Assembly (NCBI GenBank): GCA_951406725.2
Contig: OX597815.1
Location: 167,214,001 to 167,278,000, forward strand
Direction of reading: 5' to 3'
Length of the DNA: 64,000 bases
Source: Octopus vulgaris
Lineage: Eukaryota
The notes beneath the pieces were generated by a model, which did no database searches, was not told the DNA's origin, and saw only the letters and a list, made by a program, of their open reading frames with translations. Made by a program: the position numbers and the translations under genes. Shown here piece by piece: positions 503 to 61,840 of the stretch. Every line of letters starts with the position of its first letter. Within the stretch, counting starts at the first letter, position 1.

Positions 503-921
503 CTATTTCTATACTACCCACAAGGGGTTAAACACAGAGAGGACAAACAAGGACAGACAAACAGATTAAGTCGATTATATCGACCCCACTGCGTAACTGG
601 TACTTATTTAATCGACCCCGAAAGGATGAAAGGCAAAGTAGACCTCGGCGGAATTTGAACTCAGAACGTAACCGCAAACGAAATACCTGCTTCTTTATTA
701 CCCACAAGGGGCTAAACATAGAGGGGACTAACACGGACAGACACACGGATTAAGTCGATTACATCGACCCCAGTGCGTAACTGGTACTTATTTAATCGAC
801 CCCGAAAGAATGAAAGGATAAGTCGACCTCGGCGGAATTTGAACTCAGAACATAACCGCAGACGAAATACCGCTAAGCATTTCGCCCGGTGTGCTAACGT
901 TTCTGCCAGCTCGCCGCCTAA
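503..921 (-). mobile_element. SINE family A, head plus duplicated body (184-bp internal tandem)
   Basis: Reverse complement of aggcggcgagctggcagaaacgttagcac...gtcgac...tttcat(c/t)ctttcggggtcgattaaataagtaccagt; the body is repeated with period 184. Confidence 0.9.
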
Positions 922-2620: not shown

Positions 2621-2922
2621 AGTTCAGCAAAATTTAGATTCAAATGAATATGGTACTTAAATTAGATGCACCAGAATTTTGTATGGTGTTATCCATATAA
2701 ATCTATGGGGTGATAATAATCAAAATAAGCAACAAGAATAACCTCGGTAATTTGGTACGATCGTTTCACGCTACATCATTTTATTAAATGTTGTAAGTAT
2801 TACAACTGTTGTAATAAAACTGTATAAAACTGTTGTAATACTTACAACATTTAATAAAATGATGTAGCGTGAAACGATCGTACCAAATTACTGAAGTTAT
2901 TCTTGTTGCTTATTTTGATTAT
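2620..2922. mobile_element. Penelope pLTR-like fragment with 91-bp fold-back inversion (arms 2716-2806 / 2832-2922)
   Basis: Arms are reverse complements with 2 mismatches; each carries the HHR 3' half GAAA-CGATCG-TA; flanked by (TA)n on both sides. Confidence 0.75.
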
Positions 2923-2983: not shown

Positions 2984-3474
2984 AAAGCACCGTAAAGGTA
3001 GAATTTTAATAGGAGAATGTGGCACATCAAAGCACTAATGTTTTCTAAAAATAGCAGTCGATAACCGTACCACGCTATGTAAAGCTTCACTGAATTTATA
3101 CTGGCAAAGATATATGCGAGCAGCGAATATAAAGATTTTCGTTTTACCTCTAGGAAGAACACCGTATAAATGGACAATCTACAATGGATAATCCAGTACT
3201 GCAATTTCGAACTTTCCTAATACGCCTGTTACCGTGAATTCGGTTAGTCCTCGTCAGCTAGATTCACCGAATGACGAAATTTTAAAATATTCGTTACATC
3301 AATGCCAGTATATTCGGTTGAACGCCTAACCGCAAACAGAACCAAAATCAGTGAAAAAAATTTATATAAAAATTATAAATACTATAAATATTAAAAAGCA
3401 TCGTAAGGATAGAATTTAAAGGGGAAAATGCGACATAACAAGGAACCAATGTTTGCTGGAAATAGCAGTCGATA
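2984..3474 (-). mobile_element. HHR-bearing unit with diverged ~80-bp terminal direct repeats (period 411)
   Basis: aaagcaccgtaaaggtagaat...aaatagcagtcgata at 2984-3063 recurs as aaagcatcgtaaggatagaat...aaatagcagtcgata at 3395-3474; an HHR lies between them. Confidence 0.7.
3190..3264 (-). ncRNA. Type I hammerhead ribozyme
   Basis: Minus strand: aatctag-CTGACGA-ggact..agttc-GAAA-ttgcag-TA-ctggatt; 7-bp stem I (1 G.U), 5-bp base of stem II, GUA triplet. Confidence 0.8.
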
Positions 3475-9754: not shown

Positions 9755-10157
9755 ACCTAGATTATCGTAGCAGAGAGAAAAATTTCTTAAAAGTTCATCC
9801 GCCCTGCACACGTTCCTCTTTCTTTTGTAGGGCTCGTCATTAGCCCTGAATTTCAGAAAACTATCTTATGCATCCATCTGCAGCAAACTTATTTCTAATT
9901 CGTGTTATTATACGTGGATCAGGTTGAAACTCTCACTTAAACTATCTTTGCACTTCGTCTTATGTTTTTATGCATTCGGTTCAGCTCATTCATAAATGTC
10001 TGTTTCTTTAAAGCTGAGTCTAGCTCTCTCTCTCTTCATTATTTCACATGAGTTATATTTAAAAAAAGAAATGAAAATTAATTTATCAGCTGCAAAAATG
10101 TGCATACACCCCATATGTATATGTATATGTATGTATATGTATGTATGTATGCATATA

Positions 10158-10212
<55 letters not shown>

Positions 10213-10273
10213 GTATGTATATATGTATGTATATATTTATGTATATTTATGTATATTTATGTATATGTATCTA

Positions 10274-10961
10274 TAGTAGAAGAAATAGCTATAACTCTTT
10301 GACTGCTATTTCTAAATTCGGTCTGTGGTAAGGCAATTCGTTGCTAAACCCTTTATTGCTTAGTATTACTTAAATTTTCCTCGAATGAGGCTTTTACATG
10401 CCGAAGACTACTTGGTGTAATTGATAATTATTCCAAATTAATTAATTTCACCCTTCATTATTACGGATAACCATATTTTATCTCAGTAGATGACCATAGC
10501 ATCTTGTTTTGGCTACACGCGGGTGGGAAGGGGCTGGTGACACAATCCTTTCATTCACACTTTGAGTTTGGTGATACTAGTTGCGGATTCTAGCTCGCTC
10601 TGATACTGAGTTGAGTTGGTGCCTTCTAGTATCTCAAAATTCAATATATAATCACTTATGATTATAGTATTCTACGCTGAAGAGAAAAGAAGTTTGGGTA
10701 ACGTAGAATTATTTAATATTTAATTCTCATGCTTTCCTAAAAACTTGATTTCGAAACGTGCGTCCGTAGATAACTTAAAATTGTATGATAGATTGCCGTC
10801 AATTCATTCTCTCTTACCTGTTTGTGTCTGCCTTCCAATTGCTGTGTTTTTTACTGAGATCTCCCTTTTTAGTAGAAGAAATAGCTATAACTCTTTGACT
10901 GCTATTTCTAAATTCGGTCTGTGGTAAGGCAATTCGTTGCTAAACCCTTTATTGCTTAGTA

Positions 10962-10962
<1 letters not shown>
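10274..10962 (+). mobile_element. Retrozyme/pLTR-like unit: 596-nt period, 93-bp identical terminal direct repeat, one HHR
   Basis: 10274-10366 = 10870-10962 (tagtagaagaaatagctataac...attgcttagtat); embedded in TA-rich microsatellite; non-coding. Confidence 0.85.
10671..10770 (+). ncRNA. Type I hammerhead ribozyme with extended stem II
   Basis: tctacg-CTGAAGA-gaaaagaagttt..aaacttgatttc-GAAA-cgtgcg-TC-cgtaga; perfect 6-bp stem I, G-C closing pair of stem II, GUC site, predicted cut after 10764. Confidence 0.85.
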
Positions 10963-11007
<45 letters not shown>

Positions 11008-11368
11008 TACATATACATATATATATGTAGATAGATAGATAGATATACAAACATATATACGTATATATACTTATGTGTATCTATATGTATGTATGTATAT
11101 ATATATATATATAAATGTATATAAATGTATACGCACACATTCGCACGCGCATGTATATTCCAGCCCTTGTGGATATACATCAACTATTTCCCATTCTCAC
11201 TTCTACCACACTTATATAAATACCACTACAAGAACTCACTTCCTATCACTGACCCAAAAGGACGTTCTTTTCGTCTACTACTTACATGTTTGTCTGAAAT
11301 CTCTTGTTCCCCCTCTATCTTTCTCTCTGTCTCTTTTTTATAGTTATATATATACACACACACACAAA

Positions 11369-12489: not shown

Positions 12490-12722
12490 CCTCTATACCT
12501 ATTTCTTTACTACCCACAACGGGCTAAACACAGGGGGGACAAACAAGGACAGATAAACGGATTAAGTCGATTATATCGACTCCAGTGCGTAACTGGTACA
12601 TATTTAATCGACCCCGAAAGGATGAAAAGCAAGGTCGACCTCGGTGCAATTTGAACGTAGCGGCAGACGAAATATCGCTAAGCATTTCGCCCGGCGTGCT
12701 AACGTTTCTGCTAGCTCGCTGT
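12490..12722 (-). mobile_element. SINE family A
   Basis: Reverse-complement match to 58495-58725. Confidence 0.9.
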
Positions 12723-12890
12723 CTTATGTCTGGGTATATAATTTTTACAGTATTGGTGTGCTTCTTGAATATGCAAAATCCAAATTCATCACATTGTGAC
12801 GAATGCAGGAGATGTGGTCTTACGTCGTACTGCTAATATTCGACTCTTTCTATGTAAAGAGATTTTAAAATTCAATATTTACACGTTACC

Positions 12891-13125
12891 AAGGCGGCGA
12901 ACTGGCAGAAACGTTAGCACGCCGGGAGAAATGCGTAGCCGTATTTCGTCTGGCGCTACGTTCTGAGTTCACATTCCGCCGAGGTCGACTTTGCCTTTCA
13001 ACCTTTCGGGGTCGATTAAATAAGTACCAGTTACGCAGAGGGGTCGATATAATCGACTTAATCCGTTTGACTGTCCTTGTTCGTTCCCTCTGTCTTTAGC
13101 CCCCTGTGGGCAATAAAGAAATAAA
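12891..13125 (+). mobile_element. SINE family A
   Basis: aaggcggcgaactggcagaaacgttagcacgccggg...gtcgactttgcctttca...caataaagaaata. Confidence 0.9.
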
Positions 13126-16100
13126 TACCATCACCGCTGTATCTAAAGTAACATATTAAGACCAGCCTCTATTCTTGGTTTATGCGAGGTTGTTGTATAC
13201 AAAGTTTTAAAGCTTGGTTTCTATTTTGCTATTATGAAAGCCTAGCAAGTTCAACTTTTCCTTTTATCACTCTGGAGCATATAGAATAAAAGGCTATCAC
13301 CGTTATACCTCAATGACCCTCTCCAGATTTGAAGTCTAGTGTCTAGCTTAGTAATGATCATAATAATTTTTTCAATTCTTTTGCTAGTAAAATTCAGTAT
13401 CAGATGGTCCTGCTCCATTTAACGTCTTTCTGTCATGTTTTGTTCTCTGCATCGTAGCCTCATATGATGAAGAAATTATTTTCTCCCCTGTAATTCATAA
13501 GTTAGGTTATATCATGCTAACGATATCTAAAAGGAATTAAATGGCACCAAACATGATTAACAGTAACTAGAAACTGTCAGAAATTCGTAATAGCTTTAAA
13601 AATAATATATGTGAAGTCTATGCATTTTTGTCATCGGAATCCCTTAATGTCAAACTGATATTACAACCCTGCTTCAAATCATGAAGAAACGATCACCCCC
13701 TATAAATAGCTGTCATCTCTAGGGAACCTACATGTATCTATAATAAATCTTTGCTGTAAATCTTAGTCTACTGGCAAAAAATCTACCGCGCTTATTTATT
13801 CGATATAACAGTTTACTTTCACAAAGTTTACAAATGTCATGTCTACTTTGTAAGTTATATTTTGTATTATTTGAATTACTGTCAATCGGGATCTAGTTAA
13901 AATGATTCACGAAATGTGCATTTTTTACAAGGAAGTAAAAATTTGAAAATTGGCTATAATAATGTAGTTTTCCAGTCTTATTGCTTTGAAGGTATGATGC
14001 TGTGGAGTAAAAAAAATGGAGGTAAAAGTTACAGACGTTTGAAAATCGAAAAAGAAAAGTGTGTATTTCTAGCTAATAGCGAGACAGAAATTTTCTGCGT
14101 TTAGCGGAGCGGCGTCAACGTTAATTTACTCTGTGAAATTTATAGTTTAGCATCTGTGAACGACATGTTCATTGTAAGTATCTAAATAAACAGAAATACC
14201 TTACAAAATCAACATGTATCATCTTACTGTTTCTTTTGTCTTTTCATTGATTGTGTAGTTTTATTATATTTTTAATTTGTTATATTAATGTATTTGCATG
14301 TGCTTACTTAATTCGTATTTCAGTATTACGTATACCTATCACGTATTTGTGTACATCATTGATATATAAGTGCATGTGTGTGAGTGTATGTGCACGTGTG
14401 CGCGTGTGTGTGTATGTGTATGTGTGTGTATGTCTGCGTAACTTCAAAGCTGAGTAACATTTTCATGTTTGGATTTGCAAATTACGATAAGAATAACATT
14501 GATCAACAAAGAATTTGTCCCAAGTAAAAGAATACCTGTATCTTATATGTTTTTGCATGCAGAATTCAAAAGTAATGTCAAATTATCTGTATCACCCACG
14601 ATTTCTCCGTTCCACGATATCCCTCTCAGTTTGCGTGAGCTAAATTTCAGTTAAACTACTGAAATGTGAAGCTACGGTTTAAGAAATACACGTAATTTAA
14701 ATTTTTATGAATAGAATTAACGTAGTGCGGCACATACACGGGTGAAGTGAAATATGCATTTGTCATGGTAACAAACTGCTAACGCTACGCTGTCTGTTGA
14801 TTGGCTAAAATTACCCAAATTGCCCAACTTTAATTCCAAATAATATCAGATTCTATAATTCACGATATAAAGTAACTGGTTGATCGTAATCAAAATTCAG
14901 AGTTGCATCGATAAACCAAAACTTAAAGCAAAATTAAAGGAGGCTCATTTTGCGAATGAAGCTAACTAAATCCGTCTATCGTTTGCATATTTGTAGTCTC
15001 TTATGATGAGTATATATTTATAATTCTGATGATTTTATTATATATTCTTATATTCTTATATTCTGGTTGATTTTCTTACATGTGTTTTGTTTATGAGATG
15101 TATGCCATAACTTATTCTGATAACTAGGATGAAATTTGTTTATCCATGCAGAAATATAAGTGCTTATTGGTGTTATACATGCATGCAAACATACCTGCAT
15201 ACATACATATATACACACATGCATACATGCATGCATGCATACATACATACATACATACATACATACATACATACATACATACATACATACATACATACAT
15301 ACATGCTTGCATGCATAAATAGAAACCTCCAACTTATATATTCGCATTTATATTAATAAAAATTGGTGGACTTGGTTTTGTAAGTGCCAAAGTGATAATC
15401 TGATATAGGTTGGCGTTCTCAGAAAAAGAAATCAACCATCTAATTCGCACATTACAAATAAGTTCTTAAAGTAAGCGGAACATTAAAACTATGCAACACA
15501 TTTCTCAAGTTAAAAATGTGAATTTGTTTTTGTTCCTAGGATGCAGGCGTCTTTATTTGTTAGAAACCATTTCATTTATTTTTATTTAGAAGGTAGTTGT
15601 TATTAGTGAGGGTTGCCATGGTGTTAGTATAGTAAAGTAGAAGAGAAACAATTTTGAATACTAACAACACCATGACATGCCTAATAATCACCACCTTACA
15701 AATAAAAATAGGAAGCGCCCTGAATAACAATAAGTAAAGAAACTGACCAGCTAAAACATACCACATACTTGTATTCGTTTGTGAAACACTAAAAGTTTCT
15801 ATTACAAAAAGTTGACACACCCAGTTATGAAGGTTCTAAATACTGGACTTTCTGCCTTTAACTTTTACATCAACTAAAATAACTAAGCTACTAACACATC
15901 CTGTGCCTACTTAACAAATGGACACGCCTAGAAATACACACTTGCTCACAATGCTCTACATACATACATAAATTTTAAACAATGATATATAACAAGTTTA
16001 ATCAACAAAAATTTCTCCGAAACACCTCTTCACAACAACCCATACTAAAACATAATTACCATCCCACTGAAATCCACTCACCCAAGGAGGATTTTAACCC

Positions 16101-16257: not shown

Positions 16258-16663
16258 CTGGCAGAAACGTTAGCACGCCGGGCGAAATGCTCAGCGGTAT
16301 TTCGTCTGCCGGTACGTTCTGGGTTCAAATTCCGCTGAGGTCGACATTGCCTTTCATCCTTTCGGGGCCGATAAATTAAGTACCAGTTACGCACTGGGGT
16401 CGGTGTAATCGACATAATCCGTTTGTATGTCCTTGTTTGTCCCCTCTATGTCTAGTCCCTTGTGGGTAGTAAAGAAATAGATATTTCGTCTGCCGCTACG
16501 TTCTGAGTTCAAATTCCACCGAGGACGACTTTGCCTTTCATCCTTTCGGGGTCGATAAATTAAGTACCAGTTACGCACTGGGGTCGGTGTAATCGACTTA
16601 ATCCGTTTGACTGTCCTTGTTTGTCCCCTCTATGTTTAGCCCCTTGTGGGTAGTAAAGAAATA
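16258..16663 (+). mobile_element. SINE family A with 184-bp tandem body
   Basis: ttcgtctgcc at 16301 and 16485; both units end gtagtaaagaaata. Confidence 0.9.
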
Positions 16664-16939
16664 CATATATGGGCTTTGTTTATAATCCGATTTGTTGCGG
16701 ACAACGTTTCGGTCCGATTCAGGTACATGGTATTCATAAGCCACAATAATGGCGAAATATCGGTATTGCCATTTATGAATTCGATCCGGGTCGCGTTACC
16801 TCACTTGGTCTATGACGTTCAGCTTTTCTTTGACACTCAGTATCGTGCAGTAATTCGGCTTATAATTAAAACACATACACTATGCTTATGCGGTTGATAA
16901 GATTTGTATATGTAGGCCTGTCTCTCTCTATAATTATTG

Positions 16940-25941: not shown

Positions 25942-26498
25942 GAGTGAGAGAGCAGTGCATGCCATCAAAGTGACACTGGGGTAAAAATATACGAAGCCCA
26001 ATATACCCATCATGACTACCCGTCTGATAAGGGTACACCAGGCACATGCATCACAACCATATGTGCACGACATGGTGATCTCATATCAAGATAAACAGCA
26101 CATGACCTTGCAGGTGGGGCCCAGTTAGAATTTTCTTCATGTTGAGCAGCCCATCCCGCTCAAAAGGTCCCTGAATAAGGGTTGTTTAAGGATGTTGAAA
26201 GAACCACCTATGTTTCCAGAGGTGAATTATTCAAACCCCAAAGAATCCCTCTCAACACATGGCTATGATGCTCCCCCACTACTTCTGCTCGTGATCAGAG
26301 ATGCACATATCGTCAGCCACTAAGGGACATGCTCAACAGGTTAAGGTCAAACAACTGACAAGCAAATCTGTGGTATTGAGCAGAATATTTGCTGTAGCCC
26401 ATCTTTTATACCAAGACAAAACAATGTACATGATAACACTTCCAATCAGTTAAGATCAGAAGCCATGAGAGCCACTGCCTGGTACTGCATCAGGGCAT
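25942..26498 (-). mobile_element. ~560-bp non-coding (TAA)n-tailed retroelement (also 26780-27262, 27745-28030, 45652-45817)
   Basis: Near-identical copies, each abutting (TTA)n at gagtgagagagcagtgcatgccatcaaagtgacac. Confidence 0.85.
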
Positions 26499-26650
26499 CC
26501 TGGTACTGCATCAGGGCATTTAGTACTGCATCAGGGCATCCTGGTACTGCATCAGGGCATCCTGGCACTGCATCAGGGCATTTAGTACTGCATCAGGGCA
26601 TCCTGGTACTGCATCAGGGCATCCTGGTACTGCATCAGGGCATCCTGGTA
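26478..26650 (+). repeat. 21/21/20-bp minisatellite (cctggtactgcatcagggcat) with 62-bp higher-order period
   Basis: Unit order A A B A A' B A A plus a partial unit, where B = ttagtactgcatcagggcat. Confidence 0.9.
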
Positions 26651-26679
26651 TTATTATTATTATCATTATCATCATCATT

Positions 26680-26778
<99 letters not shown>

Positions 26779-26779
26779 G

Positions 26780-27260
26780 AGTGAGCGAGCAGAGCATGCC
26801 ATCAAAGTGACACTGGGGTAAAATATACGAAGCCCAGTATACCCATCATGACTATCCGTCTGATAAGAGTACACTAGGCACATGCATCACAACCATATGT
26901 GCGCGACATGGTGATCTCATATCAAGATAAACAGCACATGACCTTGCAGGTGGAGCCAGTTAGAATTTTCTTCAGATCGAGTAACCCATCCCGCTCAAAA
27001 GGTCCCTGAATAAGGGTTGTTTAAGGACGTTGAACGAAACACCCATGTTTCCAGAGGTGAATTATTCAAACCCCAAAGAATCCTTCTCAACACATGGCTA
27101 TGATGCTCCCCCACTACTTCTGCTCGTGATCAGAGATGCACATATCGTCAGCCACTAAGGGACATGCTCAACTGGTTAAGGTCAAACAACTGACAAGCAA
27201 ATCTGTGGTATTGAGCAGAATATTTGCTGTAGCCCATCTTTTATACCAAGACAAAACAAT

Positions 27261-27262
<2 letters not shown>
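26780..27262 (-). mobile_element. Second copy of the (TAA)n-tailed element
   Basis: Colinear with 25942-26428. Confidence 0.85.
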
Positions 27263-27320
<58 letters not shown>

Positions 27321-27325
<5 letters not shown>

Positions 27326-27652
27326 TAGCTTTATGTTTATAGCTTGCTTTCACTTCACTACCGAGCGCAGCTCTGTGTGTCTTGGGTATGTGCTGTGGTT
27401 TGTTGTGATGCTCTTTTGGTTACATCTTTGCGTAGGAAGTGTGCAGTGCCCAGTAGTGCAATTTTCTGTATGTTTTATATATATATATATATATATTTGT
27501 AAGCCCTGGTATTTTTGTCATGTATTTATCTGAATATTTTTTTATCATACATGATGCGCCTACTATGATAGGAATTGTTTCTGTTTTTAGATTCCACATT
27601 CGATTTACCTCTATTTCCAGGTCTTTGTATTTTGAAAGTTTCTCCATGTCTT
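27321..27652 (-). mobile_element. R4/Dong-type non-LTR retrotransposon 3' end
   Basis: EKLSKYKDLEIEVNRMWNLKTETIPIIVGA...(frameshift)IQKIALLGTAHILRK, typical of the REL-endonuclease C-terminus; (TAA)n on both sides. Confidence 0.85.
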
Positions 27653-27663
27653 TATTATTATTA

Positions 27664-27741
<78 letters not shown>

Positions 27742-27744
27742 GTG

Positions 27745-28030
27745 AGTGAGAGAGCAGTGCATGCCATAAAAGTGACACTGAGGTACAAACATACGAAGCC
27801 CTATATACCCATCATGACTACTCGTCTGATAAAGGTACACCATACACAACCATATGTGCACGACAAGGGGATCTCATATCAAGATAAACAACGCATGACC
27901 TTGCAGGTGGGGGCCCAGTTAGAATTCGCTTCAGGTTGAATAGTCCATCTTTTATACCAAGACAAAATATGTACATGATAACACTTCCGATCAGTTAAAA
28001 TCAGAAACCATGTGAACCACTGCCTGGTAT
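27745..28030 (-). mobile_element. Third, internally deleted copy of the (TAA)n-tailed element
   Basis: Colinear with 25942-26485 but missing ~250 bp between two agcccatc motifs. Confidence 0.8.
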
Positions 28031-28514
28031 TGCGAAAACTTTTAGCTTATTTTGCTGGGTATGATGGAAAATGTCTGCTGGATCTGTTGGCGATATTTTT
28101 CCGTTTCTGAACCTTTCTGTTTTCTTTTTTGTCGTTTGTGCTCTGTGTAAGTTGGACCTATTAATATAAATATTTATATTTCTATACATAAAATTCATCC
28201 CCTGAGAGTTTCCATTTTTTTTTTACTTTCTGTCGTTTTCCATGTATACGTATATACTAATTTTGTATTTGATGTATTTAACAAATTAAATATATTTGAT
28301 GTGTCTAATTTGTTTATTTACATCATTGGTTCTACACCCGCCCAATTTAATCCCTTTTATAGCCTTGCTCAATTTAATCCCTTTTATAGCCTTTCTTTAC
28401 CTTGAGGATTGATCCTCTGGAAAGGTATCGTAGTTTAAGTTCGAAGTTTTTGAGCACTACAGTATTTTATACAGAGAATATCTGGATCTCATCTGTGAAC
28501 TATGTACGTACGCG

Positions 28515-37237: not shown

Positions 37238-38157
37238 AATGTGAGGATAAAATTCTTTTCGAAAAAAAAAATATTTTCTCGAAAAAAATGTTATCAATGG
37301 CCAGCATATTAGCGGTTAAATTTATAAACAATTCATAAATGAGGGCAAAGGAAAAAAATTCTAATGCCAAATATGCCGAAAAATTGGACATATTGTTCAT
37401 TAACCATATCATTTTTTCCACAATACGCACGCTACTCGAAAAAAGGTCGACAGAAATTTCTAAAAAATCGGACCGATTTCAGAGTTAGCTACTAAGAGCC
37501 CTCTCTTCGTCAGTGATACATGTGGCAATAGAAATAAATGAGATATTTACTCGCACCTATGGAAGAAGCAAATACTAAGTCATGGGCACAACTAAGTACC
37601 CCAAATACATCCAAAATAGAAATACTCCAGCCCATTCGAGGCACGTGCGATTTGAACTGAGGCTCTCACAGAGTGAGTTAGTTAGTTCGGAAGAGAACGC
37701 TTAAATTTATATCAAATGTGAGGATAAAATTCTTTTCGTAAAAAAATATATATATTTTCTCGAAAAAAATTTTATCAATGGCCAGCATATTAAAAAGTAC
37801 CTTTAACGGTTAAATTTATAAACAATTCATAAATGAGGGCAAAGGAAAAAAATTCTAATGCCAAATATGCCGAAAAATTGGACATATTGTCCATTAACCA
37901 TATAATTTTTTCACAATACGCACGCTACTCGAAAAAAGGTCGACAGAAATTTCTAAAAAATTCCATTATTACCATATCGGACCGATTTCAGAGTTAGCTA
38001 CTAAGAGCCCTTAATAATGGAATTTTTTAGAAATTTCTGTCGACCTTTTTTCGAGTAGCGTGCGTATTGTGAAAAAATTATATGGTTAATGGACAATAAG
38101 TCCAATTTTTTGGCATATTTGGCATTAGAAATTTTTTCCTTTGCCCTCATTTATGAA
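37231..38157 (-). mobile_element. HHR-bearing ~510-nt unit as a partial tandem (37231-37502 ~ 37708-38011) plus a 146-bp inverted arm (38012-38157)
   Basis: Direct repeat starting atcaaatgtgaggataaaattc; 38012-38157 is the reverse complement of 37826-37971; composite HHR tatca-CTGACGA-agag..ctct-GAAA-tcggtccga-TA-tggta. Confidence 0.85.
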
Positions 38158-39351
<1,194 letters not shown>

Positions 39352-45652: not shown

Positions 45653-45817
45653 GGTCATGTGCTGTTTATCTTGATATGAGATCACCATGTCGCGCATATA
45701 TTGTTGTGATGCATGTGCCTAGTGTACCCTTATTAGACGGGTAGTCATGATGGGTATACTGGGCTTTGTATATTTTACCCCAGTGTCACTTTGATGGCGT
45801 GCAATGCACTCTCACTC

Positions 45818-54070: not shown

Positions 54071-55817
54071 ATGACAAAAATCAGAAGACTAATCAAGGAA
54101 TTCCAAGATTCCTTCACAGACAAGGGGAAATATTATATATGCAACTCTGTAATCAAAGAGAGCAAATTCTACGGATTACCCAAAATCCACAAAAGCTCCG
54201 AAATACAAAGTGCCCTAAATAAGCAGAAGAGCCAGTACGTAAAAATTCTAAAGCCTGCTGACCTCAAACTAAGACCAATAGTTGCTGGATCTCAAGCGCC
54301 AACACAACAACTAAGTCAATGTTTTAGATTTACTCCTAAAATCTTTGTACCCTTTACTACCCAGTTACGTACGGGATGGCATAGATTTCATCTAACACAT
54401 CCCTCCTACTGTCGCAGAAGGTACTATACTCGCAAGTTTTTATGTCACCAATCTCTATACTAATATACCTCCCACTTTAGGCTTAGAAGCAATCAAACAC
54501 TGGGTAGAGAAACATAGAGAACGGATAAATGGACGCTTCAAGACTGACTTCATCACCAAGGCCACACATCTAGTACTAGAGGAAAATACCTTTAGATTCA
54601 ACAATAAAACATATCGACAATTAACGGGCATGGCCATGGGTACGCGATTTGCACCCTCATATGCAAATCTTACTTGGAAGAAAAACTTTATGAGGAAGCA
54701 GAAAAAGCTTTTGATCAGGAATACAAGAAATATATCTTTAAAAAGTAGAAACGCTTCCTTGATAATTGCTTCATCTTCTGAGACAAATCGAATGAAGATC
54801 TGAATATATTTAACAATATACTGAACACACATCACCCATCCATCAAATTCACGACAGAATCCAGTTGCAATGAATTACCATTCCTGGACATCCACATAAA
54901 AATTCAGAACTCCACAGTCACAACAGACATATTTTACAAAAAATTGACATACACCAATATCTAAATTTCTACTCTTGCCATCTATCACACATCAAAAGAA
55001 ACATCCCATACAGCAAGGCAAGATGCATCTGTGCTATAGTAACTGACCCCAAAATACATGAAATCCGACTCAACGAACTCAAAGGCTTTCTCACAATGTA
55101 GAAATATTCCTTAGGGTTAATTAATGAGGGAATTAAAAAGGTGTTGAAATTGAACATCACCCAACTACGGACACCTAAGGAAAAGTTAATGAAACCACGA
55201 TTCCGTTCATTAACACACACAGTCCTGTATTAACCAACATCTTGCAGGCCATAAAATCGAACTTACCTATACTCCTACCAAGCCCCAAAATGAAAGCTCT
55301 GAATGCAAAAAACAGCCCACCTTATGGAATAGCAGACGTCAACCAAAAAAATCTTTAAAAAATACCTCACAAGGGCAGAATTCAAATCAAAGAATGAATC
55401 AAAATTCTTAGTAAAAGAATGTGGGTATAGGAGATGTGGAACATGCAACAATATCAACAACTTCAAATACTTGGAAATTGGTTTCCACGTAAATTTCATG
55501 AGCGGAACCTTTTTCAAAATAAATGCAGATATGAACTGCAAAACGCAAAACCTCATATACAGCATTACCTGCCCAAACTGCAGAGAAAATTATATTGGCG
55601 AAACAAATAATTCCCTCTGCCAACGTGCCAGAATCCACAGGCAACATATCCGTCAAGAAGAATTGCGCAAGATTCTTTTAAGCAAGCATCTGGAAATATG
55701 CGGCGACGGAAAATTCAAAATTTTCCCTTTTACAAATGTGCACGGAACGATCCGCAATACCGAAAAGCAATGGAACTAGATTTCATAAAAAAATTCTCTC
55801 CAAAGTTAAATGTTTGA
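54071..55817 (+). pseudogene. Penelope-like retroelement RT + GIY-YIG endonuclease (Neptune-like), frameshifted
   Basis: FYGLPKIHK, LRPIVAG, LYTNIP, YRQLTGMAMGTRFAPSYANL, RFLDNCF (RYxDD position), LPFLDI, CGYRRCGTC linker, NLIYSITCPNCRENYIGET..R..H; several frameshifts and stops. Confidence 0.92.
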
Positions 55818-56504: not shown

Positions 56505-56540
56505 CTTTCTGAAGAAGAGCGTAGCCTCGAAACGTAAAAT
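56505..56540 (+). ncRNA. Minimal Penelope-type hammerhead within a pLTR-like repeat (~56460-56620)
   Basis: cttt-CTGAAGA-a-gag-cgtagc-ctc-GAAA-cg-TA-aaat. Confidence 0.7.
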
Positions 56541-57437: not shown

Positions 57438-57598
57438 TCTAGCCACTACACATTCTTTATTTTCTCTGCCCGTTTCTTTCTGTGGAAGAGCGTAGGCTTG
57501 AAACGTTAAAGTCTTTTTCACTTCCTGAGCGTTAAACTAATACATCTGTTTGTTGTCTACACCATCGGTCTTCGTCTTTTGTTTATTTTTTTAAATTC
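57438..57598 (+). mobile_element. pLTR-like repeat with HHR variant (57476-57511)
   Basis: cttt-CTGTGGA-agagcgtaggctt-GAAA-cg-TT-aaag; colinear with 56460-56620. Confidence 0.7.
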
Positions 57599-57695: not shown

Positions 57696-58494
57696 GCACT
57701 CACACACAAAGTGTGTTCTGTGTGTGCGTAAATCATGTACAATGTGTACTGAGCGTTCATTTTGCTGCTTAATATTTAAAAAGTAGCATATAATTTTCGT
57801 GTAATACTTGTATATGAATATACTTTGGTTTGTTGATAGATATATTTCGTTTGCACTTAAAGAGTATGTTTATTAACATATTTCGTCTGAATAATATACG
57901 TTTTATTCGCTGAAAAATGAAACCAAAACAAAATGAAAATGCAGCTGTTGTAAATCTAATCAAAATTAGTTTGTTATTTAAAAGAAAAGAATTTTAATTT
58001 TAAAAAATTGCAGACTCAGAATTACTGATGTTGAAAGTGATTTTTAAAAGCTATTATAAAAATGTTAGGGTATGTATTAGAAAAATTTTATTGAAAACTT
58101 ACTGCTGGTTGTACTACAGCAGACTATCTTTCAGTTTAAGATTTAAAGAAAACGCTCGCAGTGAATTGAAATTAATTATTTAGTTGAAAAGAAACTTGAA
58201 AACCACATCTTGATAAAAAAATAAAATTGGAAAATTAAAAAGCTTACGAAACAATGGAGACGTCTATAATTGTTTTCTTTTAGTAAAATTACATAATTTC
58301 AACTAATTAAAACGCACCTCTTTCAGTTATTGTATAGAAGCTTAAAAGCTGCACTCACCACGAATTTTAAAGTTTGATTCTGTGAATGGTATTTGGGCTT
58401 TCGACCTATGTAACTAAATCTTTAGAATAATAATAAACTAATTTTAAAGAGTAAGCAATTTCTTGGGGCAAAATATAAAAGGTATAAAACATTA

Positions 58495-58725
58495 AGGCGG
58501 CGAGATGGCAGAATCGTTAGCACGCCGGGCGAAATGCTTAGTGGTATTTCTTCTGTCGCTACGTTCTGAGTTCAAATTCCGCCGAGGTCGACTTTGCCTT
58601 TCATCCTTTCGGGGTCGATTAAATAAGTACCAGTTACGCACTAGGGTCGATATAATCGACTTAATCCGTTTGTCTGTCCTTGTTTGTCCTCTCTGTGTTT
58701 AGCCCCTTGTGGGTAGTCAAGAAAT
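58495..58725 (+). mobile_element. SINE family A, intact, with 15-bp target-site duplication
   Basis: aggtataaaacatta at 58480-58494 and 58726-58740; tRNA-like head; core gcctttcatcctttcggggtcgat..aagtaccag resembles the Meta/MESC SINE domain. Confidence 0.93.
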
Positions 58726-60314
58726 AGGTATAAAACATTACTGTCACAATAAATTTGAGATCATTATAAGGCAGCAGAGTAAACATTCTTGTTTATTATC
58801 AATATAAATATTTCAGTAAATCCTTTTACATTCTTAATTTTTAATTCCTAATTCTTGATGCTTAATTTTTAACTTTCATTTTTTAATTCTTACTTTTCAA
58901 TGTTTAATTTTCAATTCTCGATTTCCAATTTTATTTATTAAAAATTTCTTTACCCATGTTAAATGTCTGTGACCACAATTCGTTAAAATCCAGTTCTCCT
59001 TCCACTGTTAAATGTGTGTGCTTCAGTTAACAGAATGGAGCCTTTCATCGTGATATAGGTGGGCACTGCTTTGCGTTTGGATGCAGTTGCATTTCTATTT
59101 CAATAATATTTCGATGTGTGGCTTCGTTTAAAAATCTATATGTGAGGTGGAGGACAAATATTTGAGGGGTGGGCAAATATTTGAAAAGTGGACAATATTT
59201 AAGGAGTCCACAAATCGGGGAAGGAGGTGACCCCCTAAATTGCTAGCAATGAATAACGTTGCTATGTAGTTGAAGTCCTATATCTAAAATACTGTGACGA
59301 GGAAACTGTTTTTCTACTATTTTAAAAGAAAATAATTCCTGAAGTTCAAATAGTTAATAAGAAATTTGGAGTAAAATCAAAATCCTCCCGCTTCATTCAG
59401 TGCCCTAGATAGACTGTATGCTGCCTGGAGCAGCCCTTTAATTTGCTGCACCTCTGGGTACCCGGAGGCTTATATAAGTTTATATAGCAGACCCGAAAGT
59501 GTCATCTCCATGTAAGAGTTGCCTGTGGTGAACTGCCGCCTTCCTCAACCTAGGCTGCTGGGAAAATGTAATTCTAAATACTAAAAAAAAAAAAAAACCG
59601 AAAGTTTTCTACCAGAAATCTTTTTTAAAAAATTCTTCCTTCTAGTTGTTGATACACTAATATCTTCAATAACCGGTCTACATAAGTTTAGAATCAAATT
59701 CATCCGTATTAATCACTATCCGTCATTTTTATCTAGTGCTTCTCAACTATTTTTTTTTTTTACTTTTCACCCTCTTTTATTGCTACAATTTTTAATGCCA
59801 TTTTGGGATCGATTTTAAAAGTCCCAGTTGAGCACTGGGTTCGATGTAATTAACCTACTCTCCCCGCCTAAAACTACTGGTCTTATGCCAAAATTTGAAA
59901 CCAATATTATAAGCATATATTCAGATTTTCTAATTTGCTTATTCACTTTTCAAAGTCTGTTATTATTGTTGATTTTGTTATTAAAATTGTTGTGATTTAA
60001 GGAAAAAAAGTTTATCATATCGTGTTTAACTTAAAAAAAAAAACAAAGTTGTTTAAATGGGAGAACAAGATTAAAACACCATACAGATGTATCTAACAAC
60101 CCAAACTTTCTCTTTCAACACAGTACTCATTATAAAAATTTCCGAAATCCGTTCACAAGGTCTTGGTAGGTCCTGTGTCATAGTAGTTAGAAACTTGCCC
60201 AAGGTACCGCGCAGTGGGATTAAAGCAAAGGTCACATTATTGAGAAGCAAACTTCATAACATGCAGTGACAACGTTTCCGCAATGAAAAAGTATTCTATT
60301 TCTGCGTCACTTGT

Positions 60315-60681: not shown

Positions 60682-60716
60682 ATAATGAAGAACGTTCTTC
60701 TTAATTGCTTAATGAA
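60315..60716. repeat. Inverted duplication of a 34-bp unique flank around a compound (CA)/(TA)/(TG) array
   Basis: ttcattaagcaattaagaagaacgttcttcatta ... taatgaagaacgttcttcttaattgcttaatgaa. Confidence 0.9.
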
Positions 60717-60789
60717 TTAAAAAAAATAAACAGAAGACTACGCATGGATATGTTAGTAGAAAGGTCCGTGATGATAGTAACATCGATCA

Positions 60790-61840
60790 TCAAAGCAGTT
60801 TATCAGGAGCTAGTAACCGGATTACTACCTTCCACTTTGAAGAGTATATGCTTGCAATCCAGAAACAGGAAATATCAACCGAGTACCTGATGCACAAAAG
60901 GGACAGAGATGCAGGAAAATCCGTAAAATGTGACACACGAGGCAGACTTTGTGGAGTTCACAATGAAGATATTACCCACATCATAAGCAGTTGTTCGAAA
61001 ATGTCATCACGGTACAATCTACCGATGAGACATGACGTTGTAGCTAGGACACTCTATAATGAAATCCTTCGGAAGGATAATCCTGAGGAGAAAGAAAATA
61101 AGAACCCACAATATGGTAGAAGCCATAGCCACTCACAATAAAAAGGAATACTGGTGAAATGTACCAGTGAAGACATCAAGGAAATATAGGCACAACAAAC
61201 GTGATATAATGATTTGGGATAGAGAAGAGAAACTGTCCACGGTTGTGGAAATTAGCTGCCCAGCGGATGTTAATTTAAAGCTGAAGATCAGTAAAAAAAA
61301 GATCATCTATACTGAACTATTGAGAAACCTGCAGTTACTCTATCTAGATTACAAGTTCAGGTTTATAGCTGTAACTATTGGCACGCTAGGATATGTAACA
61401 CACTACTTAAATACCAATCTTGAGAAATTAGGCTTCTCAAAACGAGAAAGGAGAACGTTAATTCGAAGACTACAGATCCAATCCATCACAGGAACTGTAA
61501 AAATCTGTAAAACTTTCCGAAAAGTCTATCATTTGAATATATATGGGCATGTTTAGTTATATGCAACTATATTAATGAGAATGCATAAATAACACATACA
61601 TACATACATACATACATACACACACATACATACATACATACATACATACATACATACATACATACATACATGCATTCATGCATACATACATACATACATA
61701 CATACATACATACATACATACATACATACATACATACATACCCTGTTGTTGACGTTGAAATTCCCATGAAGGAGCATTAGTTCTAGGTTAGAAACCGTTT
61801 CTTTCTCTATTGACAAGAAATCTTGAAATTAACTGAATAT
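60790..61840 (+). mobile_element. R4/Dong-type non-LTR retrotransposon 3' part (CCHC knuckle + REL endonuclease), decayed
   Basis: AIQKQEIST, RLCGVHNEDITHIISSC, RHDVVA, HNKRDIMIWD..VVEISCPAD, IAVTIGTLG; frameshifts; 3' UTR split by (CATA)n. Confidence 0.88.

What the first reader, a model, noticed from the sequence alone, without database searches (positions are those of the whole stretch)
10274..10962. Youngest unit: 596-nt repeat with identical 93-bp ends and an intact long-stem-II hammerhead
Seen: the 93-bp terminal repeats are identical, too long for a TSD and without LTR TG..CA ends. The HHR has every core nucleotide (CUGAAGA/GAAA/GUC), a perfect 6-bp stem I, and a 69-nt stem II region with a further agaatta/taattct helix. 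Stem III is only 2 bp around a 4-nt loop. Inference: a recent insertion and the best candidate for an active ribozyme, possibly cleaving as a dimer.
Basis: partly seen in the sequence, partly recalled or inferred. Interest (0 to 1): 0.8.

Follow-up and report, generated by a model that had tools for sequence, protein, structure and literature searches.

The report
Young retrozyme-like repeat with long-armed hammerhead
This is one recent copy of an abundant 596-base non-coding repeat that carries a hammerhead RNA motif predicted to cut itself only as a pair; it is likely pasted into TA microsatellites by a Penelope-type jumping gene, and it is a new example of a known kind of animal parasitic RNA (retrozymes).

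Summary
Observation confirmed: identical 93-bp ends 596 bp apart, and an intact type I hammerhead (predicted cut after C10764) that no shuffle reproduces. The ends are not LTRs or a TSD but the overlap of a 1.16-unit partial tandem in a TA microsatellite. The unit is non-coding and folds as a rod on the hammerhead strand. Public contigs show an abundant family in three organism labels, with three compensatory base-pair changes (one in stem I), a perfect stem III palindrome in most family depth, and two back-to-back inverted junctions of Penelope type. Best reading: a solo copy of a non-LTR retrozyme-like family, likely mobilised by a Penelope-like element, possibly via an RNA circle. Corrections: this copy has one ribozyme, so it cannot excise a circle alone; its minority G10760 is predicted to misfold the monomer; a second intact hammerhead lies at 3197-3257; divergent RT-PCR cannot prove a circle. 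Cleavage, circles, expression and multimers are untested. This scan already noted several 330-493-nt sister families on other DNA of this genome, some with long stem II; no look-alike of this 596-nt family was indexed. New member of a known kind; interest 0.3.

The parts
10274..10962 (+). whole insertion: 1.16 units of a 596-nt non-coding repeat, between TA-rich microsatellites
   Evidence: longest ATG-started frame 37 aa in six frames; GC 35.6%
10274..10366 (+). left copy of the 93-bp terminal redundancy; holds a 9-bp hairpin 10281-10289/10305-10313 and the 11-mer at 10301 shared with the unit at 2987-3474
10367..10465 (+). rest of the 'head'; pairs with the repeat (10317-10328/10394-10405); a second likely 3' end of family copies lies near 10460-10464
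   Evidence: fold; head z -2.5; one (TA)n loose end, contig ends and depth drop
10480..10860 (+). long predicted rod with the hammerhead at its tip and two side hairpins (10562-10644; 10647-10666, two compensatory pairs)
   Evidence: z -6.8 on + strand, -2.1 on - strand
10671..10770 (+). type I hammerhead motif, predicted cut after C10764
10684..10752 (+). 69-nt extended stem II
   Evidence: base pairs P 0.95-0.98; indels and broken pairs in family contigs fall in its outer part
10756..10763 (+). self-complementary stem III and loop (8-bp duplex between two molecules); position 10760 is G here, A in most family DNA depth
10870..10962 (+). right copy of the 93-bp terminal redundancy; its end is the likely reverse-transcription start
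   Evidence: one sibling contig ends at the equivalent 10362 before (TA)n letters (table 5c)
10113..10273 (.). left TA-rich microsatellite flank (target)
10960..11030 (.). right TA-rich microsatellite flank (target), first part

Best explanation
The 689 bp are a recent solo copy (one 596-nt unit plus 93 nt) of an abundant non-coding repeat with an intact type I hammerhead motif that is predicted to cut as a dimer, and the family likely works as a non-LTR retrozyme mobilised in trans by a Penelope-like element (PLE). Steps: (1) shown: non-coding unit, hammerhead motif, many near-identical relatives, TA-microsatellite target; (2) predicted: RNA of the + strand folds as a rod and two hammerheads pair through the palindromic stem III to cut after C10764; (3) inferred from the literature, untested here: multi-unit source loci give unit-length RNA that a host ligase closes into a 596-nt circle; (4) inferred: a PLE reverse transcriptase/GIY-YIG endonuclease nicks a TA tract, starts copying at a preferred internal site (about 10960) and runs more than once round the unit, stopping 93 nt past one lap, which gives the identical ends; copying from both nicked strands would give the back-to-back arms seen in relatives; (5) this copy, with one ribozyme, is likely an end product that could only cut in trans.
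For: Identical 93-bp overlap in (TA)n, no TG..CA. Descriptor 2 hits in the window, 0 in 300 shuffles. Rod z -6.8 on +, -2.1 on -. 1679 and 1670 contigs laid in two DNA-guess runs, 538 and 581 of them at 99% or more; 20 of 24 listed runs hold 59-92% of the words, in 3 organism labels. Of the 40 variant rows shown (53 hidden), 21 are at paired positions: 6 form three compensatory pairs (10649/10664, 10653/10660, 10671/10770 in stem I), 10 keep a pair by a one-sided change, 5 break one. A10760, a perfect palindrome, holds 63% and 94% of depth in X2 and X15; position 10681 (N7) varies. Two-strand MFE equals the active double hammerhead; monomer stem III has P 0.01. Two inverted 5'-to-5' junctions in relatives (X18 record 18, joint 10548/10867; X1 loose end at 10530 that reads as the reverse complement of about 10845-10875), the arrangement described for PLEs (PMC8557442, passages). 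A decayed RT + CX4CxxC + GIY-YIG element lies at 54074-55776. PLE protein cuts AT-rich DNA, extends both strands and starts at two internal RNA sites (PMC11167929, parts 1-2 of 4).
Against: No multimer of the unit was seen: no genome is held and contigs collapse repeats. No sequence similarity to the PLE-type ends in the window (3 of 3 comparisons with |z| under 1), so no mobiliser is identified. The compensatory changes sit in one diverged subfamily (phase inferred from matching depth values, contigs not seen), so they may be few events; one-sided wobble changes are weak evidence; that subfamily also has U4C in one X1 contig. The energy gain on dimerising (-9.4 kcal/mol) is no larger than for shuffles (-8.4 +/- 2.3; 32 of 100 reach it). 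Loose ends pile up before 10870/10871 (8 contigs in X1, 19 in X2), a recurrent left boundary that random run-off round a circle does not predict. In the one reconstituted PLE, ribozyme cleavage was not needed for insertion; 8 of 9 Xenopus retrozyme dimers did not cut in vitro. The unit is longer than the 170-400 nt of characterised animal retrozymes.
Confidence: 0.62

Rival explanations
1. Non-autonomous PLE derivative copied from a linear, uncut RNA: a transcript starts at a fixed point (10274) and reverse transcription starts at a fixed internal site one unit plus 93 nt downstream, so the 689-bp form reproduces itself with no circle; the dimer-only ribozyme stays off in the template.
For: Recurrent left boundary at 10870/10871 and a sharp depth step there in X1; uncut RNA is the dominant substrate and initiation is internal in the anole PLE; monomer fold predicted inactive; a 470-nt contig identical to this copy runs through the cut site in an RNA-guess run.
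Against: Inverted arms in relatives begin at other points (10530, 10548, about 10845, 10867), so left ends vary; a closed rod and conserved pairing fit the circRNAs of known retrozymes; a contig through the cut site also fits a ligated circle.
Confidence: 0.2
2. The 596-nt unit is the pseudo-LTR of an autonomous Penelope-like element, and this locus is only a 5'-truncated end of it.
For: PLE insertions are mostly 5'-truncated partial tandems with a hammerhead in the pLTR; long unrelated sequence precedes 10870 in 8 X1 contigs (median 161 and 59 nt); an earlier scan note says about half of such motifs in this genome are PLE ends.
Against: The unit's end runs straight into its own start with no coding remnant, also in a sibling contig of another organism label (X18 record 21); the hammerhead has a 6-bp stem I and a stem III, unlike the minimal motifs at 56509 and 17723; no similarity to the end next to the decayed PLE.
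Confidence: 0.13
3. A small LTR-type or tyrosine-recombinase-type non-autonomous element with true 93-bp terminal repeats, or a local duplication, with the hammerhead as a passenger or chance fold.
For: Identical direct repeats at both ends; recurrent left boundary; Rfam score below the gathering threshold.
Against: No TG..CA, no distinct TSD outside microsatellite sequence; relatives run on past the repeat into the unit and show inverted arms; chance excluded by 0 of 300 shuffles and by stem I covariation.
Confidence: 0.05

Closest known systems
Metazoan non-LTR retrozymes (Cervera and de la Pena 2020, PMC7229834: abstract, passages, sections 14 and 17 read; review PMC7761336: passages)
   Same: Non-coding, low-GC, highly self-paired repeat unit with a type I hammerhead, weak palindromic helix III (dimer-dependent in axolotl), no LTR/PBS/PPT features, co-occurring with PLEs.
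   Different: 596 nt against about 170-400 nt; 69-nt stem II against a canonical 4-bp helix with loop contacts; this locus has one ribozyme, not a tandem array; circles and cleavage not shown; 'octopus' and 'cephalopod' occur 0 times in that paper's main text (supplements not seen).
Non-LTR retrozymes as non-autonomous PLE derivatives (Li, Clavereau, Pollet 2026, bioRxiv 10.64898/2026.07.22.740005: parts 1-3 of 5 read, supplements closed)
   Same: Consensus lengths 51-972 bp cover 596; solo 'monomer' copies are dispersed genome-wide; PLE mobilisation proposed.
   Different: Their 'active' class needs two or more consecutive hammerhead units, not met here; no mollusc among the classes named; homology to a PLE pLTR, found for 21 matches in Xenopus, was not found here.
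Penelope-like elements and their pLTR hammerheads (PMC4209133: parts 1-2 of 4; PMC8557442: passages; PMC11167929: parts 1-2 of 4)
   Same: Partial-tandem terminal repeats, inverted 5'-truncated arm, AT-rich or (TA)n targets, alternative 3' ends, palindromic helix III for dimer cleavage, more-than-unit copying proposed in 2014.
   Different: No RT/GIY-YIG frame; fuller hammerhead than the minimal pLTR motif; the two candidate 3' ends are about 100 nt apart, against a 30-40-bp tail.
Sister families noted earlier by this scan in the same genome (330-493-nt units; unreviewed AI notes)
   Same: TA-microsatellite target, hammerhead at a rod tip, long stem II in some, back-to-back arms with two fixed ends.
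   Different: Unit length 596; no sequence look-alike indexed.

Membership tests
Type I hammerhead ribozyme | Core C3 U4 G5 A6 N7 G8 A9, G12 A13 A14 A15.1, U16.1 H17 | tested here: met
Type I hammerhead ribozyme | Three helices with open stem I; G10.1-C11.1 | tested here: met
   6 bp, 4+ bp, 2 bp; one compensatory pair in stem I
Type I hammerhead ribozyme | Short helix III with palindromic loop allowing a dimer | tested here: met
   8 of 8 positions pair; dimer MFE is the active geometry
Type I hammerhead ribozyme | Rfam RF00163 gathering score (a curation threshold, not a biological definition) | tested here: not met
   21.2 of 34 bits, full model length matched; the long stem II is the likely cause (inference)
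Type I hammerhead ribozyme | Loop 1/loop 2 tertiary contact | not tested
   no structure-based test made; the geometry with a 69-nt stem II is unknown
Type I hammerhead ribozyme | Self-cleavage at H17 | not testable with these tools
   only contigs, no raw reads
Non-LTR retrozyme | Non-coding, low-GC, self-paired unit with type I hammerhead | tested here: met
Non-LTR retrozyme | Two or more consecutive hammerhead units (at this locus) | tested here: not met
   1.16 units, one hammerhead; so the locus is filed as a solo, retrozyme-like copy
Non-LTR retrozyme | Dimers or multimers elsewhere in the genome | not testable with these tools
   no genome held; both unit junctions are bridged by sibling contigs (X18 records 17, 21), which fits but does not prove arrays
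Non-LTR retrozyme | Multi-copy family | tested here: met
   about 1,670-1,680 contigs laid per DNA-guess run; depth is no copy number
Non-LTR retrozyme | Expressed as unit-length circular RNA | not testable with these tools
   contigs cannot show strand, ends or circles
Autonomous Penelope-like element | RT + GIY-YIG frame | tested here: not met
   longest stop-free frame 67 codons, 37 from ATG
PLE-type insertion | Partial tandem and inverted 5'-truncated arm in AT-rich or (TA)n target | tested here: met
   partial tandem in (TA)n here; 2 inverted junctions among the rows shown
PLE-type insertion | Two fixed 3' ends (tail) | tested here: inconclusive
   about 10362 (this copy and one X15 contig) and about 10460-10464 (one X1 loose end, contig ends, depth drop); 18 of 217 loose-end rows shown
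PLE-type insertion | Homology to the pLTR of a coding PLE | tested here: inconclusive
   none to the 3 PLE-type ends in this window; rest of genome not available
LTR element / TRIM / plant LTR retrozyme | TG..CA ends, short TSD, type III hammerhead inside the LTR | tested here: not met

The most novel reading that the evidence does not exclude
This family is a large (596-nt) retrozyme whose long stem II and rod replace the usual loop-loop contact, whose ribozyme is switched on only by dimerisation, and whose insertions record a Penelope enzyme copying an RNA circle from two start sites about 100 nt apart on both nicked strands; an 11-mer hairpin motif in the terminal overlap, shared with an otherwise unrelated 411-nt unit, is the cis-signal the enzyme reads, and single-ribozyme copies such as this one are themselves transcribed and act as partners in trans.
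Probability: 0.25. Interest if true: 0.6.

Novelty: new member of a known kind. Interest (0 to 1): 0.3.

Why it matters
Which enzyme spreads animal retrozymes, whether circles are the template, and what the PLE hammerhead does in vivo are open questions in the papers read. A young family with natural alleles that differ at one stem III base, a long stem II and clear ends is handy test material. The class, dimer cleavage and the PLE link are already in print, and this scan has noted several sister families in the same genome, so this locus adds one more, larger family rather than a new principle.

Tried and rejected
Rfam gathering scan: nothing. Own genome not held, so no copy census, empty-site or multimer test. 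No RNA holder listed on record; RNA labels are guesses and no silent control stretch was laid, so expression is not claimed. Hint only: X1 (RNA guess) holds a 470-nt contig with 0 differences at depth 19.5 of about 58, with the G10566 allele that makes up 13 of 74,980 depth in X2; a reduced-representation DNA library could give the same. Metagenome scan with the terminal hairpin pattern: 1 hit, L001, bacterial-looking coding DNA matching only 14 letters, rejected as chance. Whole-unit alignment to the 411-nt unit and to three PLE-type ends: not significant. TSD search: best 9-mer is microsatellite sequence, rejected. Dimer energy gain: not above shuffles. Sigma-70 promoter scan: irrelevant to an animal, 1 site against 2.4 expected. 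Protein search with the GIY-YIG piece among longer proteins: 0 of 82 candidates scored; Pfam gave nothing for the 3 RT-region pieces and one weak unrelated hit for a fourth. Paper searches: 'hammerhead ribozyme'+'octopus' (4 listed, none describing this), 'Penelope'+'hammerhead'+'octopus', 'retrozyme'/'Penelope'/'cephalopod' (10 of 51 listed), 'extended stem II' with three other terms (0); listings only, and subscription papers and supplements were not seen. The snRNA-type promoter lead from scan notes was not tested.

Full report
Observation. The stretch 10274-10962 lies between TA-rich microsatellites in a repeat-rich animal window. That the genome is octopus-like comes from earlier scan notes and my recall of its repeats, not from a test. 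The ends 10274-10366 and 10870-10962 are identical over 93 bp at offset 596, and the unit has no other copy in the window. The hammerhead is as described: stem I 10671-76/10765-70, CUGAAGA, a 69-nt stem II, GAAA, 2-bp stem III, C17 at 10764. A strict descriptor finds 2 sites in the window and 0 in 300 shuffles. Rfam sees it only below threshold (21.2 of 34 bits; nothing).

RNA anatomy. The unit is non-coding (longest ATG frame 37 aa) and 35.6% GC. The monomer folds at z -5.2; 10470-10869 forms a rod with the hammerhead at its tip, z -6.8 on the + strand and -2.1 on the - strand, which points to + as the functional strand. Stem III with its loop is self-complementary over 8 nt. In the monomer the active stem III has probability 0.01, and a misfold pairs 10674-10677 with 10760-10763 (P 0.4-0.8); forbidding 10760 to pair removes it and lifts stem I to 0.86-0.99. 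For two strands the minimum-energy fold is the strand-swapped active double hammerhead. The energy gain itself is ordinary (32 of 100 shuffles reach it), so only the geometry counts.

The family. No genome is held. 20 of 24 listed public runs hold 59-92% of the sampled words, under 3 organism labels and 9 studies. Four runs were laid on 10240-10990: 43, 1679, 1670 and 5 contigs. The tables are cut: 40 of 93 variant rows, 18 of 217 loose ends, 30 of 3426 pieces are shown. Placed on the fold, the 40 rows give 6 positions in three compensatory pairs (10649/10664, 10653/10660, and 10671/10770 in stem I), 10 one-sided changes that keep a pair, 5 that break one (near indels in a side hairpin and outer stem II), 16 unpaired and 3 in the core or stem III (U4C in one subfamily, N7, and G10760A). 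That the compensatory partners lie in the same contigs is inferred from equal depth values, and they belong to one diverged subfamily, so they may be few events. U4C is reported to lower activity but allow viroid infectivity (PMC3088659, passages). A at 10760, which makes the palindrome perfect and cannot form the misfold pair, holds 63% of depth in X2 and 94% in X15. G10566 is nearly private to this copy (13 of 74,980 in X2). With 0 of 93 differences between the ends (upper bound 3.2%) the insertion is young.

Ends. Two sibling contigs have back-to-back inverted junctions (joint 10548/10867 in X18; the loose end before 10530 in X1 reads as the reverse complement of about 10845-10875). One X15 contig stops at 10362 before (TA)n letters, matching this copy's right end; one X1 contig stops near 10464 before (TA)n, where X1 contigs end and X2 depth falls tenfold. 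These are single observations. I took the 'two arms, two fixed ends' reading from earlier scan notes and could test it only this far. Unexplained: loose ends pile up before 10870/10871 (8 contigs in X1, 19 in X2, low agreement), and in X1 the head 10274-10460 is several times deeper than the body. Either the left end is a preferred stop or transcript start, or the head is shared with other families.

Neighbours. A second unit on the minus strand (about 2987-3474, 411-nt spacing, repeats 78% identical) has an intact type I core with a 42-nt stem II and a palindromic stem III. The 11-mer at 10301 occurs 4 times in the window, once in each repeat of the two units, although the units do not align overall. 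A decayed element at 54074-55776 has RT-like pieces followed by CX4CxxC and GIY-YIG (Pfam E 1.8e-4, 22.1 of 22.6 bits; Atlas neighbours GIY-YIG 0.96 and RVT_1 0.93); that finger marks the Neptune and Nematis PLE clades (PMC8557442, passages). Minimal hammerheads lie at 56509 (+) and 17723 (-). None resembles our unit, so the mobiliser is not identified.

Mechanism. Shown: anatomy, family, covariation, target. Predicted: rod fold and dimer cleavage. Inferred: source arrays, circle, PLE copying past one lap. The literature gives each inferred step for other animals: circles and dimer cleavage (PMC7229834), more-than-unit copying of a circle by PLE enzymes as a proposal (PMC4209133; PMC7761336), PLE origin (bioRxiv 10.64898/2026.07.22.740005), and nicking of AT-rich DNA with extension of both strands from two internal RNA sites (PMC11167929). 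The same papers give the cautions: cleavage was dispensable for insertion in the anole element, and 8 of 9 Xenopus dimers did not cut. Dimer cleavage by small PLE hammerheads (Lunse et al. 2017) I saw only as a reference title. I give 0.62 to the retrozyme reading, 0.2 to a linear, circle-free PLE parasite, 0.13 to a truncated pLTR of a coding element and 0.05 to LTR-type or chance readings.

Membership and novelty. The motif meets the type I hammerhead definition by sequence and structure; cleavage is untested. The locus fails the two-unit criterion for an active retrozyme, so it is filed as a solo, retrozyme-like copy; membership of the family awaits multimers or circles. My paper searches listed no description of such a family in a cephalopod; supplements and subscription papers were not seen. 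The scan had already noted sister families of 330-493 nt in this genome, but no look-alike of this sequence and nothing near this place. Verdict: real, new member of a known kind, interest 0.3.

Noticed in passing
window 2987-3474 (minus strand), hammerhead 3265-3190, predicted cut after 3197: Older 411-nt unit with 78%-identical end repeats and an intact type I hammerhead (7-bp stem I, 42-nt stem II, palindromic stem III); shares an 11-mer in its repeats with the 596-nt unit; no unusual fold stability left (z -0.4).
   Followed up: partly
window 54074-55776 (+): Decayed Penelope-like element with RT pieces, CX4CxxC finger and C-terminal GIY-YIG (Neptune/Nematis-like); many stops and frameshifts.
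   Followed up: partly
window 56509-56536 (+), 57460-57575 (+), 17723-17697 (-): Minimal hammerhead motifs with a 4-nt palindromic stem III in related repeat ends (alignment z 9.5 and 23.7); likely PLE pseudo-LTR remnants; the 17723 copy has U4C.
   Followed up: partly
window 25942-28033 and 45653-45817; frames at 27420-27800 (-) and 60716-61556 (+): Repeats starting at (ATT)n tracts, with two 485-bp copies 95.7% identical, and decayed coding pieces of another retroelement (zf-RVT weak hit).
   Followed up: no
window 38059-39153 (+): 364-aa frame with a reverse-transcriptase domain (Pfam RVT_1, E 5.5e-9), likely a LINE remnant.
   Followed up: no
window 507-871 and 16298-16668, with further copies at 12491-13127 and 58492-58732: SINE-like family present as 184-bp tandem dimers and inverted pairs.
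   Followed up: no
window 2744-2919: Near-perfect inverted repeat of about 75 bp arms next to the older hammerhead unit; part resembles 1994-2063 (76%).
   Followed up: no
window 10443-10466: Stretch that loosely resembles a recalled snRNA proximal sequence element, right at the second candidate 3' end; scan notes mention snRNA-type promoters in sister families.
   Followed up: no
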